In this document: piece by piece, positions 1,651 through 61,167 of the stretch | Layout of the letters: each line of letters begins with the position of its first letter | How positions within the stretch are numbered: position 1 is the first letter of the stretch | Origin: Shigella phage vB_SdyM_006 | Strand: one strand, 5' to 3' | DNA length: 64,000 bases | Sequence record: MK295204 | Notes under the pieces: generated by a model | Database searches by the model: none | What the model saw: the letters and a program-made list of their open reading frames with translations, nothing else | What the model was told of the DNA's origin: nothing | Position numbers and translations under genes: made by a program

Positions 1651-1726
1651 TGGCGGTCTTACCGAGAATCGAACTCGGTGCTGTTCCGTGACAGGGAACT
1701 ATGTTAACCAGGTACACCATAAGACC
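1651..1726 (-). tRNA. tRNA-Asp (anticodon GUC)
   Basis: Acceptor GGTCTTA/TAAGACC, anticodon stem GTTCC/GGAAC with loop CTGTCAC, T-loop TTCGATT, CCA encoded. Confidence 0.8.
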
Positions 1727-7894: not shown

Positions 7895-8473
7895 TTACCT
7901 CATAGAAGGATGTAAGTTTCTACCTATTGAAATAGCGGAGTCTTGAATAGACGGACGAGATACTATAATTTTATTATTTTTCTCTATTTCGAAATATTTA
8001 AAGTTAAATACAACAGTCATATAAACCGCTGGGTCACCTTCGTTATCATAACCATATTCTATATCAGATATAGAAGAAGGCCAAGCGCCATAATAGTTAA
8101 ATGATATTAAGGATTCTTTTTTATCATTATCTAATATATGTAATATCAGTCCTTCAGGTTGTCCAGATGGGTCCCAGGCGGTATTATTATGGGTGATATA
8201 GTTATTAATTGATAACATCCATTTGTATATCTCTACGTAAGAGAGGAGTTCCTCGTCTAATAAAACTTTAGCTACTAATTCTCCATGTTCAAGTGTAGAA
8301 CCTGGTAAATTAGATCTACCAAGTCCTTTTGTTCCTAAAGGAACTTCAGTAATAGGTATTCTAACATCAGGAAGTGTAAAGCTTTGGACATTTAATGTAA
8401 ACGCTTCAGTTAATTTACTATCTGGTATATCAATTCTAAAATTTGTAGAATTTGTTTGATTAAAAAAACTCAT
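7895..8473 (-). CDS. 3: tail completion / sheath stabiliser protein (gp3-like)
   Basis: Position between gene 1 and gene 2, size 192 aa. Confidence 0.6.
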   Translation of the reverse strand: MSFFNQTNSTNFRIDIPDSKLTEAFTLNVQSFTLPDVRIPITEVPLGTKGLGRSNLPGSTLEHGELVAKVLLDEELLSYVEIYKWMLSINNYITHNNTAWDPSGQPEGLILHILDNDKKESLISFNYYGAWPSSISDIEYGYDNEGDPAVYMTVVFNFKYFEIEKNNKIIVSRPSIQDSAISIGRNLHPSMR

Positions 8474-8490
8474 ATTAGTTTCCTTGTTTT

Positions 8491-8656
8491 ATTAATTTAT
8501 TAAAAGTATAGTATATTCTATATAACTATTAAGTAATAAATTAATAACTATATGTTACTATTTCTAAAGAAATCTGGAGCTGCGCTCCAGAATTTTTATT
8601 ATTTTATTAAGTTCTTTATATATTATATATAACTATTAAGTAATAAATTAATAACT
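8491..8656. repeat. copy A of a ~166-bp element: two 31-bp direct repeats (8519-8549, 8626-8656) flanking a GC hairpin CTGGAGC-TGC-GCTCCAG (8574-8590); inverted copy at 53705-53871
   Basis: Direct comparison: reverse complement of 53705-53871 matches 8491-8656 except for the 3-nt hairpin loop. Confidence 0.9.
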
Positions 8657-8664
8657 GTACGTTA

Positions 8665-9483
8665 TTATCTTTTCCAAACTTTAGAAGCTGCAAATCTTGA
8701 ACCTTGAGACATAAATTGCTGAGTAGGCATAAAAATAATATTAGACCAATCTTGTGGTTTAACTTCTATTATAGGGCCTTTAATATGTCCAGGTAAATAA
8801 GCTTTTATCATCTGATCAGAACCATGCATTCCTCTAACACTACTCCAATTAATTTTTAATTTAGTTTTAGAAGAAATGTTACTTGTAGAAGAAAATCTTT
8901 TTAATAGTTCTTCTAAAAATGCTTGTCTGGCTTTAGGTGGTATATAATGAAGATTTAATCCATATAATAATTGATTTCCGTTTCCAGCAGTTTTAGCACC
9001 TAAGAAAATGATCAATGGAAACTTATCCCAATACGGGAGAGTATCTTTATTTTTGGCATCATAAACATAAGTATAAATTTTACCGATTTCTGGTACTTTA
9101 GTTGTTTTTGTTCTTACACCAGTTTTTATAGTTTCTTTAAACCATTTTATAGATTTATTATTAACAGCTGCGCCTTCATTTCTTATTTTTTTCTTTAAAG
9201 TACTTCTAAAGTCATTTACAATTGCAAGTTCACGTTCTCTACGTGATAATTTATGTTTAGATTTACCTTTAATAGCTTCGACTTCTAATGCTTCTTTTAT
9301 TTTATCAGAATACCGACTCATTGCTGATGTGAATGTGCTATATTTTATTCCTTTATATTCAGCAAACTTTTTAGAAGACACAGTTCTTCTAACTTTAGCA
9401 AATTCAACACCTAATTTAATCCAATCTTGTGCTGTTTTAGGTAAAGACATTTCTTCTTCAATTTCAAATATCATCCTTTCCAC
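8665..9483 (-). CDS. 2: DNA end protector protein (gp2-like)
   Basis: Synteny 3-2-4, size 272 aa (T4 gp2 274 aa). Confidence 0.7.
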   Translation of the reverse strand: MERMIFEIEEEMSLPKTAQDWIKLGVEFAKVRRTVSSKKFAEYKGIKYSTFTSAMSRYSDKIKEALEVEAIKGKSKHKLSRRERELAIVNDFRSTLKKKIRNEGAAVNNKSIKWFKETIKTGVRTKTTKVPEIGKIYTYVYDAKNKDTLPYWDKFPLIIFLGAKTAGNGNQLLYGLNLHYIPPKARQAFLEELLKRFSSTSNISSKTKLKINWSSVRGMHGSDQMIKAYLPGHIKGPIIEVKPQDWSNIIFMPTQQFMSQGSRFAASKVWKR

Positions 9484-46115: not shown

Positions 46116-46200
46116 ATTATTCTCACAGTTGCGAATTGATGATGTGTATACTATATTATAAAATAGTGTTTGTAAACATCTAAAATAATTTAAAATAAAT

Positions 46201-46229
46201 GTTTACTTTTGCTGTCATTATGATATTAT
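46201..46229 (+). promoter_or_regulatory. sigma70-like early-type promoter inside a repeated promoter-RBS-start cassette (-35 GTTTAC, 17 bp, TGa-TATTAT)
   Basis: Cassette tgtttacttttgctg...tattatatacatattgaaac...ggagtatattATG also occurs at 60771-60845 and 61096-61168 on the minus strand. Confidence 0.55.
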
Positions 46230-46271
46230 ATACATATTGAAACGAAACATGAAAAACAAATGGAGTATATT

Positions 46272-46616: not shown

Positions 46617-46621
46617 AACAA

Positions 46622-46650
46622 AAATGGGACCGTAAGGTCCCATTTTCAAA
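46622..46650. terminator. bidirectional terminator (ATGGGACC-GTAA-GGTCCCAT)
   Basis: 8-bp stem; T-runs on both strands; sits between convergent genes. Confidence 0.6.
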
Positions 46651-52733: not shown

Positions 52734-53318
52734 ATGTTTGAAATAACATGTAACGACATAACATACAACGCTAGATATTTCACTCTAGACGAATACGAGG
52801 ACGTTCTTAATAAAATAACTGATAATAATATTAAAGACGCCATTAGTGGGCTCTTAATTGATTGTATAGACTCCTACGATACAAACTTGCCTAAACACTA
52901 TGCAGAATGTATTTTTCTTAAATTATGGGCTCACAGTTTAGGTGGAGTAACTAAAGAACTAAATGATATTTTTGTTAATTTTAATTATATAGAAACACCT
53001 AAAGAAAAAGGATTTATTTACAAATTAGATGGATTGAGTCTCAAAATGAGATATCCAAAATTATTTGAAGACTCTGATAAATTAGAAATGGTCATAAATT
53101 GTATTGACTCAGTATTATTAGAAGACCAAACAGAAATTAAAGCTTCAGAGCTTTCTTCAGATGATTTAAACGTTTTATATTCATACTTGACGAAAGACGT
53201 AATTTTTTCGTTAAGAGACGAATTACTTAGACCTAAACCGTATATCGCTTTTCCTGTTGATGACGAAATTAAAACAATAGAAGGGTTTAAAAATTTATTA
53301 GAGGTGATAGATGAGTAA
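52734..53318 (+). CDS. 26: baseplate hub subunit gp26
   Basis: 194 aa (T4 208 aa), synteny. Confidence 0.6.
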   Translation: MFEITCNDITYNARYFTLDEYEDVLNKITDNNIKDAISGLLIDCIDSYDTNLPKHYAECIFLKLWAHSLGGVTKELNDIFVNFNYIETPKEKGFIYKLDGLSLKMRYPKLFEDSDKLEMVINCIDSVLLEDQTEIKASELSSDDLNVLYSYLTKDVIFSLRDELLRPKPYIAFPVDDEIKTIEGFKNLLEVIDE

Positions 53319-53697
53319 AATGAATGTTTTATATTCTGACTTAGACCCTAAAATGGAAAAAGGCTGGGATAAAGACCTGCATAAAGTCGTAGGAGATAGG
53401 GCTGTCAAAAATTCTATTCTAGGAATAATTAGTACTAGGAAAGGGTCTAGACCCTTTGACCCAGAATTTGGGTGTAATATAACAGACCAATTATTCGAAA
53501 ATATGAGTCCATTAATAGAAGACACTATAGAGCGATCTATAGTTTCGGCTATTAAAAATTATGAGCCAAGAGTACAAAGATTAAAAGTTTCTGTTACTGC
53601 ATTGTATGATTCAAATTCTATAGTTGTAGATATTATTTTTTCTATTGTAGATAATCCAGACACATTAGAACAGATAAAAGTTCAATTATCAAAATAG
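53311..53697 (+). CDS. 25: baseplate wedge protein gp25
   Basis: 128 aa (T4 132 aa); gpW/gp25-like pattern (ILGIISTRKGSRPFDPEFGC). Confidence 0.75.
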   Translation: MSKMNVLYSDLDPKMEKGWDKDLHKVVGDRAVKNSILGIISTRKGSRPFDPEFGCNITDQLFENMSPLIEDTIERSIVSAIKNYEPRVQRLKVSVTALYDSNSIVVDIIFSIVDNPDTLEQIKVQLSK

Positions 53698-53704
53698 TTT
53701 ACTA

Positions 53705-53871
53705 TAGTTATTAATTTATTACTTAATAGTTATATATAATATATAAAGAACTTAATAAAATAATAAAAATTCTGGAGCTGCGCTCCAGATTTCTTTAGAA
53801 ATAGTAACATATAGTTATTAATTTATTACTTAATAGTTATATAGAATATACTATACTTTTAATAAATTAAT
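53705..53871. repeat. copy B (inverted) of the ~166-bp element; hairpin CTGGAGC-TGC-GCTCCAG at 53771-53787
   Basis: Reverse complement identical to 8491-8656 apart from the 3-nt hairpin loop. Confidence 0.9.
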
Positions 53872-53936: not shown

Positions 53937-54347
53937 ATGAATTTAGAAGAATTACAAACAATGTTATCAGAAGATTTAAGAATTGATCCATTAAAACTTC
54001 AATATGAAGCTGCAAATAATCCAACATTATATGGAAAATGGTTAAAAATTTATTCTGATATAAAGAAAGGAATTATTTCTTATGAAGCTAATAAGAAAAA
54101 ACTTTTAAAACAAAGATTAGACCATTATACTGGACGTGGTGATGAAGTGTGTATGGACTTATATGAAAAATCAGAACTTAAAACTGTTATTGCAGCTGAC
54201 CCAGAAATTTTGAAAACACAAACATCTGTGGAATATAGAACATTATTATTGGATTTTGCATCAAAAGCTTTAGATGCTATTAAAGCCCGTGGATTTAGTA
54301 TTAAGCACATTCTAGAATGTAGACAATTTGAGGCAGGAACAAAATGA
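53937..54347 (+). CDS. uvsY: recombination mediator UvsY
   Basis: Strong match to remembered T4 UvsY (KLQYEAANN, YSGRGD/YTGRGD, LLDF.S.ALDAIK.RGF.IKHI). Confidence 0.9.
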   Translation: MNLEELQTMLSEDLRIDPLKLQYEAANNPTLYGKWLKIYSDIKKGIISYEANKKKLLKQRLDHYTGRGDEVCMDLYEKSELKTVIAADPEILKTQTSVEYRTLLLDFASKALDAIKARGFSIKHILECRQFEAGTK

Positions 54348-58056: not shown

Positions 58057-58063
58057 ACAAAAA

Positions 58064-58090
58064 AGGGACCAATTGGTCCCTTTTTATTTT
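58064..58090. terminator. bidirectional terminator (AGGGACC-AATT-GGTCCCT)
   Basis: Hairpin with A6 upstream and T-rich tract downstream. Confidence 0.6.
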
Positions 58091-60773: not shown

Positions 60774-60813
60774 AATATACTCCGTTGTTTCCGTGTGTTG
60801 TTTCAATATGTAT

Positions 60814-60842
60814 ATAATAACATGTCTACAGCAAAAGTAAAC
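60814..60842 (-). promoter_or_regulatory. sigma70-like early-type promoter, cassette copy 1 (-35 GTTTAC, 17 bp, TGt-TATTAT)
   Basis: Minus strand reads tgtttac-ttttgctgtagacatgt-tattat; identical core to the copy at 61136-61164. Confidence 0.55.
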
Positions 60843-60861
60843 ATGTTATTGTGGCTTTTTA

Positions 60862-61098: not shown

Positions 61099-61135
61099 TA
61101 TATACTCCATTTTCGTATGTTGTTTCAATATGTAT

Positions 61136-61164
61136 ATAATAACATGTCTACAGCAAAAGTAAAC
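61136..61164 (-). promoter_or_regulatory. sigma70-like early-type promoter, cassette copy 2
   Basis: Same sequence as copy 1. Confidence 0.55.
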
Positions 61165-61167
61165 AAA

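What the first reader, a model, noticed from the sequence alone, without database searches (positions are those of the whole stretch)
53771..53787. Hairpin loop keeps the same absolute orientation in both inverted copies
In both copies the plus strand reads CTGGAGC-TGC-GCTCCAG, although all flanking sequence is inverted. Relative to its arms the loop is therefore flipped in one copy. Consequently the T-rich tract follows the hairpin on the plus strand in copy A but on the minus strand in copy B, in each case the strand opposite to the flanking genes. This could reflect strand-specific selection (for example on an RNA read from one strand), a protein-binding site, or cruciform-mediated gene conversion; it could also be coincidence in a 3-nt loop.
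Basis: partly seen in the sequence, partly recalled or inferred. Interest (0 to 1): 0.55.

Follow-up and report, generated by a model that had tools for sequence, protein, structure and literature searches.

The report
Flipped loop in duplicated phage terminator
Two inverted copies of a small terminator/promoter cassette in a T4-like Proteus phage differ only because the 3-base hairpin loop has flipped in one copy; related phages show the same flip recurring at several such hairpins in either direction, so it looks like a mutational quirk and not a strand-specific signal.

Summary
CTGGAGC-TGC-GCTCCAG occurs on the + strand at 8574-8590 and 53772-53788, one base off the stated coordinates. It lies in a 169-nt inverted repeat (8491-8659 / 53703-53871) whose arms match perfectly except for the loop.

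The window is from a T4-like Proteus phage (Bragavirus). Copy A lies between genes 2 and 3. Copy B lies between gene 25 and uvsY, inside a block already known to be inverted relative to T4. Each copy has the layout repeat unit, hairpin, repeat unit, and resembles the PeSL terminator/promoter cassettes of T4-like phages.

Read in the direction of the flanking genes, the loop is GCA (once ACA) in 8 of 10 copies across five genomes. It is flipped to TGC only in the window's copy B and in Pm5461's copy A. As a result the window reads TGC on the + strand at both copies, and Pm5461 reads GCA at both.

Two further cassette hairpins outside the window also flip (GAA/TTC) between PM2 and Pm5461, which differ by 2.3%. 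Predicted hairpin energy is the same in either orientation.

Best reading: recurrent, nearly neutral minute inversions of the loop, most likely by replication template switching between the palindromic arms. Conserved absolute orientation is refuted. This is a new example of a known kind of event, of modest interest.

The parts
8491..8659 (-). Cassette A: 169-nt arm of the inverted repeat, in the gap between gene 2 and gene 3. In the gene direction it reads unit a, hairpin, unit b.
53703..53871 (+). Cassette B: the other 169-nt arm, between gene 25 (baseplate wedge) and uvsY. Same layout as cassette A, read on the + strand.
8573..8591 (.). Hairpin A, TCTGGAGC-NNN-GCTCCAGA with an 8-bp stem (5 G-C pairs). 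Terminator-like on both strands.
53771..53789 (.). Hairpin B, with the same stem as hairpin A. Terminator-like on both strands.
8581..8583 (-). Loop of copy A. It reads GCA in the gene (-) direction, which is the majority and probably ancestral state, and TGC on the + strand.
53779..53781 (+). Loop of copy B. It reads TGC in the gene (+) direction. This is the flipped, derived state: all four relatives have GCA here.
8594..8668 (-). Repeat unit a of cassette A, the first unit after the gene 2 stop codon. It contains the conserved core GTTATTAATTTATTACTTAATAGTTATATA.
   Evidence: (D2)
8487..8561 (-). Repeat unit b of cassette A, followed by the ribosome-binding site and start codon of gene 3. 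It holds the promoter-like ATTACT-N18-TACTAT at 8508-8537.
   Evidence: (D2)
53692..53764 (+). Repeat unit a of cassette B.
   Evidence: (D1)
53799..53871 (+). Repeat unit b of cassette B. It holds the promoter-like ATTACT-N18-TACTAT at 53825-53854.
   Evidence: (D1)
7895..8473 (-). Gene 3 (tail completion and sheath stabilizer), downstream of cassette A.
8665..9483 (-). Gene 2 (DNA end protector), upstream of cassette A. The relatives annotate a shorter 810-nt gene with a later start.
53311..53697 (+). Gene 25 (baseplate wedge subunit, GPW_gp25), upstream of cassette B.
53937..54347 (+). uvsY (recombination mediator), downstream of cassette B.

Best explanation
The hairpin is the stem-loop of a likely two-way intrinsic terminator. 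It sits inside a repeated intergenic cassette (repeat unit, hairpin, repeat unit) that this phage group carries at four fixed places in the genome. Copies A and B face opposite ways because copy B lies in a block that is inverted in these phages relative to T4.

Both copies originally read GCA in the direction of the flanking genes. In the lineage of this window, the 3-base loop of copy B underwent a minute inversion to TGC, which by chance makes the + strand read the same at both copies.

Such flips recur at perfect G+C-rich hairpins in these phages and appear nearly neutral. The most likely mechanism is this: during replication, the growing strand that has just copied one arm jumps to the complementary arm on the other strand, copies the loop backwards, and jumps back.

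Shown here: the anatomy, the polarity of the flip, its recurrence, and the equal predicted folding energy. Inferred: terminator activity, promoter activity of the units, and template switching as the mechanism.
For: 1. Anatomy. The two arms of the 169-nt inverted repeat are identical except for the loop. The hairpin is terminator-like on both strands. The depositors annotated the sister hairpins at loci C and D in Pm5461, and at loci A and D in Morganella phage MP1, as rho-independent terminators.

2. Polarity. Copy B reads GCA in the gene direction in SJ_PmiM, phiP4-3, PM2 and Pm5461, and TGC only in the window. Apart from the loop, SJ_PmiM's intergenic sequence at copy B matches the window's.

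3. Recurrence, with exact reverse complements and unchanged stems:
- Locus A: Pm5461 has TGC, against GCA in the window, phiP4-3 and PM2 (SJ_PmiM has ACA).
- Locus C (gene 35|36, stem CTGGGAGC): PM2 and an ENA contig have TTC, Pm5461 has GAA.
- Locus D (upstream of gene 55, stem TCAAGGAGC): Pm5461 has TTC; PM2 and phiP4-3 have GAA.
- MP1: the same stem carries AAA at locus A and TTT at locus D.

4. Rate. PM2 and Pm5461 differ by 2.34% over 62 kb, yet 3 of their 4 cassette hairpins are flipped. The window and phiP4-3 differ by 2.28%, and 1 of 2 is flipped.

5. No fixed strand. The window's + strand reads TGC/TGC at A/B, Pm5461's reads GCA/GCA, and phiP4-3 and PM2 read TGC/GCA.

6. Neutrality. 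RNA energy is -12.7 kcal/mol and DNA energy -7.8 kcal/mol for either orientation.

7. Known mechanism. Loop inversion at perfectly paired hairpins, and spacer inversion between short inverted repeats, are described outcomes of template switching (PMC8794818; PMC8604942).

8. Why the copies are inverted. A block of more than 10 kb (baseplate genes to hoc) is reported as inverted in MP1 and Pm5461 relative to T4 (PMC5384007), and the gene order seen here agrees.
Against: - No reads, transcripts or experiments were available. Terminator function, promoter function and the replication origin of the flips are all inferred.
- Only five Bragavirus genomes, one metagenome contig and two Gualtarvirus genomes could be compared, and they are not independent samples.
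- About 18 of 23 triloops are purine-rich in the gene direction. If flipping were fast and fully neutral, a ratio nearer 1:1 would be expected, so some selection for the gene-direction orientation may exist. Alternatively the flips are simply recent.
- For the window's copy B alone, conversion from copy A in a parallel register would give the same product and cannot be excluded.
Confidence: 0.75

Rival explanations
1. Ectopic gene conversion between the two copies. Because the stem is a palindrome, copy A and copy B can also pair in a parallel register over the hairpin. A short conversion patch would then copy A's + strand loop (TGC) into B. This is.
For: - The two copies are otherwise identical over 169 nt, although orthologous cassettes differ by about 18% between genomes. 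This suggests the copies do exchange sequence.
- In the parallel register, 27 of 31 positions around the hairpin match (family D16).
- The product is exactly what is observed.
Against: - Perfect homology in the parallel register is only 8 + 8 bp.
- The hairpins at loci C and D have stems found nowhere else in their genomes, yet they flip too. A mechanism acting within one hairpin is therefore needed anyway and is sufficient here.
- The hairpin at 46621 may also have flipped in Pm5461.
Confidence: 0.12
2. Strand-specific function. The loop is kept in one absolute orientation because an RNA read from one strand, an oriented protein site, or the DNA strand carrying the very stable GCGCAGC mini-hairpin must face a fixed way, for example relative to replication.
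For: - In the window both copies have GCGCAGC on the - strand.
- In Pm5461 all four cassette hairpins have the G-N-A loop on the + strand.
- GCGNAGC is a documented very stable DNA mini-hairpin that forms on one strand only (PMC13037366).
Against: - Absolute orientation differs between genomes. The window has G-N-A on -/- at A/B. Pm5461 has it on + at all four loci. phiP4-3 and SJ_PmiM are split two and two. PM2 is split three to one.
- Any single flip from the two-and-two ancestral state makes a genome look more uniform, so the window's pattern carries no information.
- Predicted folding energies are equal in both orientations.
- No Rfam family matches the region.
Confidence: 0.05
3. Assembly or sequencing artefact, or an arbitrary consensus call from a phage population that holds both loop orientations.
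For: - The cassette is a repeat that breaks short-read assemblies: Logan contigs end inside the unit.
- One ENA contig joins gene 25 to gene 36 through a unit.
- Fold-back artefacts at palindromes are known in library preparation (own knowledge).
Against: - Producing a flipped loop from unflipped reads would need an assembly word length no longer than the 8-nt arm.
- Flips appear in independent genomes from different laboratories and at four loci.
- A mixed population would itself mean frequent real flipping, which is the best explanation.
Confidence: 0.06
4. Coincidence: three independent point substitutions happened to produce the reverse complement.
For: Among unrelated runs of three or more mismatches in divergent comparisons, about 2-3% are exact reverse complements by chance.
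Against: - The region otherwise shows almost no substitutions relative to SJ_PmiM.
- The three changes fill the loop of a perfect 8-bp stem exactly.
- The same pattern recurs at least five times at hairpin loops.
Confidence: 0.01

Closest known systems
Loop inversions at perfect hairpins by template switching (PMC8794818), spacer inversion between short inverted repeats (PMC8604942), and the minute hairpin inversions of chloroplast non-coding DNA (Kelchner and Wendel 1996, from memory; small-inversion papers)
   Same: The loop becomes its exact reverse complement. Length is preserved and the flanking arms are perfect. The event recurs independently in different lineages, and it arises faster than point substitutions.
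   Different: Here it is seen in terminator hairpins of a T4-like phage, with 3-nt loops in which all three bases change. The reported rRNA cases are mostly 4-nt, partly self-complementary loops. It also affects paralogous copies within one genome, which is what produced the 'same absolute orientation' puzzle.
PeSL (promoter-early stem-loop) composite terminator/promoter cassettes of T4-like phages (PMC2839356, PMC4122927)
   Same: These are short, conserved, A+T-rich intergenic cassettes present in several copies per genome. A stem-loop lies just upstream of a sigma-70-like promoter, followed by a ribosome-binding site and start codon (cassette A before gene 3). They are substrates for recombination between copies.
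   Different: The Bragavirus cassettes sit at four fixed loci in the conserved core (2|3, 25|uvsY, 35|36, upstream of 55), not in the hyperplastic regions. They carry two repeat units each. The promoter match is imperfect (ATTACT-N18-TACTAT against TTTACW-N17-TAYWAT). No gene insertions, deletions or swaps next to them were seen among the five genomes.
Quasi-palindrome templated mutations in phage T4 rII (Ripley; de Boer and Ripley; Schultz and Drake; from memory) and in E. coli (PMC7202029)
   Same: These also involve a strand switch between the arms of an inverted repeat during replication, and the classic system is T4 itself.
   Different: Those events correct imperfect arms. Here the arms are already perfect, so only the loop records the event.
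d(GCGNAGC) extraordinarily stable DNA mini-hairpin (PMC13037366)
   Same: The top of the stem plus the loop reads GCGCAGC or GCGAAGC on one DNA strand, which is exactly the motif.
   Different: No evidence here that the DNA hairpin forms or acts in vivo. The phage tolerates the motif on either strand.

Membership tests
Intrinsic (rho-independent) terminator | G+C-rich stem-loop of adequate stability | tested here: met
   The stem has 8 bp with 5 G-C pairs and a 3-nt loop. RNA energy is -12.7 kcal/mol, z-scores -3.4 and -3.6 for the two orientations.
Intrinsic (rho-independent) terminator | U-rich tract directly 3' of the stem | tested here: met
   TTTCTTT follows on the gene strand and ATTTTTATTATTTT on the opposite strand. 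Both pass the scan. The PM2-type cassettes have the stronger tract on the gene strand, ATTTTTAATATTTT.
Intrinsic (rho-independent) terminator | Transcripts end there | not testable with these tools
   No RNA data. Depositors annotated the sister hairpins as terminators from folding alone.
PeSL cassette | Conserved composite of a stem-loop and a sigma-70-like early promoter, the stem-loop upstream of the promoter | tested here: inconclusive
   The order hairpin then unit b is present. Unit b contains ATTACT-N18-TACTAT, one mismatch and one extra spacer base from the T4/PST consensus. Matches of that quality occur about 0.4 times per kb per strand in this A+T-rich window (PMC4122927).
PeSL cassette | Several near-identical copies in intergenic regions of one genome | tested here: met
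   Four loci with two units each in Pm5461 and in phiP4-3. Four units lie in the window.
PeSL cassette | Ends in the ribosome-binding site and start codon of the downstream gene | tested here: met
   In cassette A, unit b is followed by AAGGAAACTAAT and the ATG of gene 3. In the PM2-type cassette B, a copy of the leader found upstream of gene 3 in PM2 lies upstream of the hairpin. Cassette B in the window has about 65 extra bases before uvsY.
PeSL cassette | Preferentially in hyperplastic regions, next to insertions, deletions or gene swaps | tested here: not met
   All four loci are between conserved core genes, and gene order is the same in all five genomes.
Template-switch loop inversion | Loop replaced by its exact reverse complement, length kept, both arms unchanged and perfectly paired | tested here: met
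Template-switch loop inversion | Independent recurrence in different lineages or loci | tested here: met
   At least five flips: locus A in Pm5461, locus B in the window, locus C in PM2, locus D in Pm5461, and MP1 locus A versus locus D.
Template-switch loop inversion | Arises during DNA synthesis by a strand switch | not testable with these tools
   Inferred from the literature.
d(GCGNAGC) mini-hairpin DNA | Sequence GCGNAGC | tested here: met
   The - strand of both window copies reads GCGCAGC. The motif definition comes from PMC13037366.
d(GCGNAGC) mini-hairpin DNA | Forms and acts as a single-stranded DNA structure in vivo | not testable with these tools
   The nearest-neighbour DNA model gives equal energy for both strands because it has no term for this motif.

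The most novel reading that the evidence does not exclude
The four conserved cassettes are not only terminator/promoter units but preferred sites of fork stalling, strand switching or recombination-primed replication in these phages. Copy B lies just upstream of uvsY, where T4 has its origin oriF (from memory). Under this reading, the very frequent loop flips are footprints of that activity, promoted by the hyperstable GCGNAGC DNA mini-hairpin. The flip changes which DNA strand carries the mini-hairpin and could therefore have strand-specific consequences.
Probability: 0.07. Interest if true: 0.7.

Novelty: new member of a known kind. Interest (0 to 1): 0.33.

Why it matters
The practical value is as a caution. 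A cluster of three substitutions in a hairpin loop is one event, and it can recur. It should not be counted as three mutations, used as a phylogenetic marker, or read as evidence of selection on one strand.

It also shows that terminator triloops in T4-like phages flip much faster than they accumulate point changes. Three of four cassette hairpins are flipped between genomes that differ by 2.3%. In contrast, the UUCG and GNRA tetraloop terminators in the same window kept their orientation in every alignable comparison.

This offers a natural system, in the phage family where templated mutation was first defined, for measuring template switching at perfect palindromes. It also extends PeSL-like cassettes to the conserved core genome of two more genera.

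Tried and rejected
- **More genomes.** Scans of IMG/VR, JGI metagenomes and GTDB genomes with the 21-nt unit core returned only Pm5461 and phiP4-3 again, plus four single chance-like matches.
- **Exact-protein look-ups of gp25 and gp3.** These gave Logan contigs that all stop inside the repeat unit, so they contributed no new A or B hairpins. One ENA contig did give an extra locus C hairpin.
- **Rfam.** Nothing relevant.
- **Repeats as ends of an invertible 45-kb segment.** All five genomes have the same gene order, and the known inversion relative to T4 has other end points. Rejected.
- **Window-wide screen for reverse-complement mismatch clusters.** In divergent pairs, about 2-3% of mismatch runs are reverse complements by chance and have no flanking stem. 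These were discarded.
- **T4 late promoter or MotA box in the units.** There is no TATAAATA in the cassettes and no TGCTT by eye. The sigma-70 scan gave only weak matches, at the level expected by chance.
- **Lavi et al. 2018 (PMC5941160).** It does not mention spacer inversion or terminators.

Full report
**1. The observation**

The 17-mer CTGGAGCTGCGCTCCAG occurs twice in the window, both times on the + strand, at 8574-8590 and 53772-53788. None is expected by chance. The finding's coordinates are one base low. With the flanking T and A the stem is 8 bp, at 8573-8591 and 53771-53789.

The two hairpins lie in a 169-nt inverted repeat, 8491-8659 / 53703-53871. When copy A is aligned with the reverse complement of copy B, the repeat matches at every position except the three loop bases, TGC versus GCA. 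The core observation is therefore correct.

**2. Where it is**

The window comes from a T4-like Proteus phage of the genus Bragavirus. Its nearest records are SJ_PmiM and phiP4-3.

- Copy A lies between gene 2 (DNA end protector) and gene 3 (tail completion protein), both on the - strand.
- Copy B lies between gene 25 (baseplate wedge) and uvsY, both on the + strand.

The copies face opposite ways because copy B lies in a block running from the baseplate genes to hoc. That block is published as inverted in Pm5461 and Morganella phage MP1 relative to T4 and other T-even phages (PMC5384007). The gene order seen here agrees.

**3. What the repeat is**

Read in the direction of the flanking genes, each copy has this order: stop codon, repeat unit a, hairpin, repeat unit b, then the next gene. 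The two units are about 75 nt long and 82-84% alike (families D1 and D2).

The unit core occurs twice at each of four loci in Pm5461 and in phiP4-3:

| Locus | Position |
|---|---|
| A | between genes 2 and 3 |
| B | between gene 25 and uvsY |
| C | between genes 35 and 36 (long tail fibre connectors) |
| D | upstream of gene 55 (late sigma factor) |

In Bragavirus every locus has one perfect G+C-rich hairpin built around GGAGC-NNN-GCTCC. Loci C and D lie outside the window.

The same cassette, with unit and hairpin variants, is present in the sister genus Gualtarvirus, in phages MP1 and PSTRCR_127.

The hairpin scores as terminator-like on both strands. Depositors annotated the sister hairpins as rho-independent terminators.

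Unit b contains ATTACT-N18-TACTAT. This is close to the T4/PST PeSL promoter consensus TTTACW-N17-TAYWAT (PMC4122927). In cassette A it runs straight into the ribosome-binding site and start codon of gene 3. In the PM2-type cassette B, a copy of the leader found upstream of gene 3 in PM2 sits upstream of the hairpin.

The closest described thing is therefore the PeSL composite terminator/promoter cassette of T4-like phages. Two caveats apply. The promoter match is weak evidence in such A+T-rich DNA. And these cassettes sit between core genes, not in the hyperplastic regions where PeSLs are typically found.

**4.

Loops read in the direction of the flanking genes. An asterisk marks a loop that is the exact reverse complement of the majority state, with unchanged stems.

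| Locus | Window | phiP4-3 | SJ_PmiM | PM2 | Pm5461 | Other |
|---|---|---|---|---|---|---|
| A | GCA | GCA | ACA | GCA | TGC* | MP1: AAA |
| B | TGC* | GCA | GCA | GCA | GCA | |
| C | – | AAA | AAA | TTC* | GAA | ENA contig: TTC* |
| D | – | GAA | GCA | GAA | TTC* | PSTRCR_127: GCA; MP1: TTT* (same stem as MP1 locus A) |

This gives at least five independent flips, spread over all four loci. Several points follow.

- **Polarity.** The window's copy B is the derived one. All four relatives have GCA there, and apart from the loop SJ_PmiM's intergenic sequence at copy B matches the window's.
- **Absolute orientation is not conserved.** On a common map orientation, the window reads TGC/TGC at A/B, Pm5461 reads GCA/GCA, and phiP4-3 and PM2 read TGC/GCA.
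- **Flips are fast.** PM2 and Pm5461 differ at 2.34% of positions, yet 3 of their 4 cassette hairpins are flipped. The window and phiP4-3 differ at 2.28%, and 1 of 2 is flipped.
- **Unique stems flip too.** The stems at loci C and D are found nowhere else in their genomes, so a mechanism acting within a single hairpin is required.

**5. Window-wide control**

I listed 25 perfect hairpins in the window and compared each with its counterpart in the four relatives.

- Apart from A and B, only the two-way terminator at 46621-46646 shows a possible flip: GTAA in the window and PM2, TTAC in Pm5461. This involves only two base changes.
- Six terminators with UUCG or GNRA tetraloops (20352, 26704, 33566, 40786, 41383, 60527) kept their orientation in every alignable relative.

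This fits selection on loop identity where the RNA loop matters, and tolerance of flips in the triloops. The sample is small.

Reverse-complement mismatch runs without flanking stems occur at the chance level of about 2-3% of runs.

**6. Neutrality and asymmetry**

The nearest-neighbour energies are identical for the two orientations: -12.7 kcal/mol for RNA and -7.8 kcal/mol for DNA.

One real asymmetry is not captured by the model. GCGCAGC and GCGAAGC are the d(GCGNAGC) mini-hairpin, which is extraordinarily stable as single-stranded DNA. Among all 64 triloops, only G-N-A forms it (PMC13037366). Its complement does not. A flip therefore moves this motif to the other DNA strand.

The phages tolerate the motif on either strand. 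However, about 18 of 23 triloops are purine-rich in the gene direction. This may reflect ancestry or a mild preference; I could not separate the two.

**7. Mechanism**

Template switching between the arms of a perfect inverted repeat is a described route to loop or spacer inversion (PMC8794818; PMC8604942). T4 is the classic system for templated mutation at quasi-palindromes (own knowledge; for context).

I consider this the most likely mechanism, but it is inferred. The alternatives are:

- **Parallel-register conversion between copies A and B.** It would give the same product at copy B. It is disfavoured by the 8 + 8 bp of homology and by the flips at loci C and D.
- **Artefact.** This is unlikely, because an assembler would need a word length no longer than the 8-nt arm, and because flips appear in independent assemblies.
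- **Three chance substitutions.** Excluded by the near-identity of the surrounding sequence to SJ_PmiM and by the recurrence.

**8. Concerted evolution**

Within the window and within phiP4-3, cassettes A and B are identical apart from the loop. Orthologous cassettes of the two sequence types differ by about 18%. SJ_PmiM carries the PM2-type cassette at A and the window-type cassette at B. The cassettes therefore exchange sequence within and between genomes, as proposed for PeSLs.

**9. Verdict**

What remains is a clean, recurrent example of hairpin-loop minute inversion in the terminator hairpins of a PeSL-like cassette family. It is a new member of a known kind, of modest interest. Its main value is as a caution for interpreting clustered substitutions and as a possible natural assay for template switching in T4-like phages.

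Noticed in passing
window 46621-46646 and 58060-58085: The block inverted relative to T4 (gene 54 to hoc, about 46.65-58.06 kb) is bounded on both sides by similar palindromic two-way terminators between convergent genes: AAAATGGGACC-GTAA-GGTCCCATTTT and AAAAAGGGACC-AATT-GGTCCCTTTTT. Recombination between two such palindromes could have produced the published inversion. Similar GGACC stems occur elsewhere in the window, so the resemblance may not be specific.
   Followed up: partly
L041 (ENA ERZ27259936, contig k141_1523), locus 1887-2020: A metagenome contig joins gene 25 (identical protein to the window's) through a single repeat unit and a locus C-type hairpin (loop TTC) directly to gene 36 and gene 37. 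This skips uvsY and about 36 kb. It is either a cassette-mediated recombinant or deletion product, as proposed for PeSLs, or an assembly chimera through the repeat.
   Followed up: partly
L042-L047 (Logan contigs): All Logan contigs carrying the window's gp25 or gp3 end inside the repeat unit, at ...TTACTTAATAGTTA or starting at TATTACTTAATAG... The unit is therefore repeated in those phages too, and it breaks short-read assemblies.
   Followed up: no
L003 599-886 (phiP4-3 copy B): phiP4-3 has a 49-nt tandem duplication that covers the last bases of gene 25 plus the start of the repeat unit (TTTACTATAGTTATTAATTTATTACTTAA|AAGTTCAATTATCAAAATAG|TTTACTATAG...). This looks like slippage or unequal exchange at the unit.
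   Followed up: no
L002 875-1080 and L001 3099-3337 (SJ_PmiM): SJ_PmiM is a mosaic. Its cassette A is of the PM2/Pm5461 sequence type, and its cassette B is of the window/phiP4-3 type. The window is closest to phiP4-3 around copy A (97%) and to SJ_PmiM around copy B (99.3%).
   Followed up: partly
window 46199-46255, 60788-60844, 61110-61165: A second repeat family of about 56 nt (TTTYCGTRTGTTGTTTCAATATGTATATAATAACATGTCTACAGCAAAAGTAAACA) has two direct copies 322 nt apart and one inverted copy 14.5 kb away. It looks like a promoter plus a gene 5' end and is unrelated to the cassette.
   Followed up: no
window 20352, 26704, 33566, 40786, 41383, 60527: Terminator-like hairpins with UUCG or GNRA tetraloops (TTCG, GAAA, or CGAA on the + strand) keep their loop orientation in all alignable relatives, unlike the triloop cassette hairpins.
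   Followed up: partly
L035 (Morganella phage MP1, gene 2|3 gap): MP1's cassette A carries a second hairpin, TATCTGAAC-GCA-GTTCAGAAAT, after the second unit. MP1's cassette B hairpin has only TT between the arms (CTGGGCC-TT-GGCCCAG), which looks like a flipped loop with one base lost.
   Followed up: no
window 1661-1679 and 1930-1948: These two perfect hairpins lie where the relatives annotate a tRNA gene cluster, so they are probably tRNA arms and not terminators. This was not checked with a tRNA finder.
   Followed up: no
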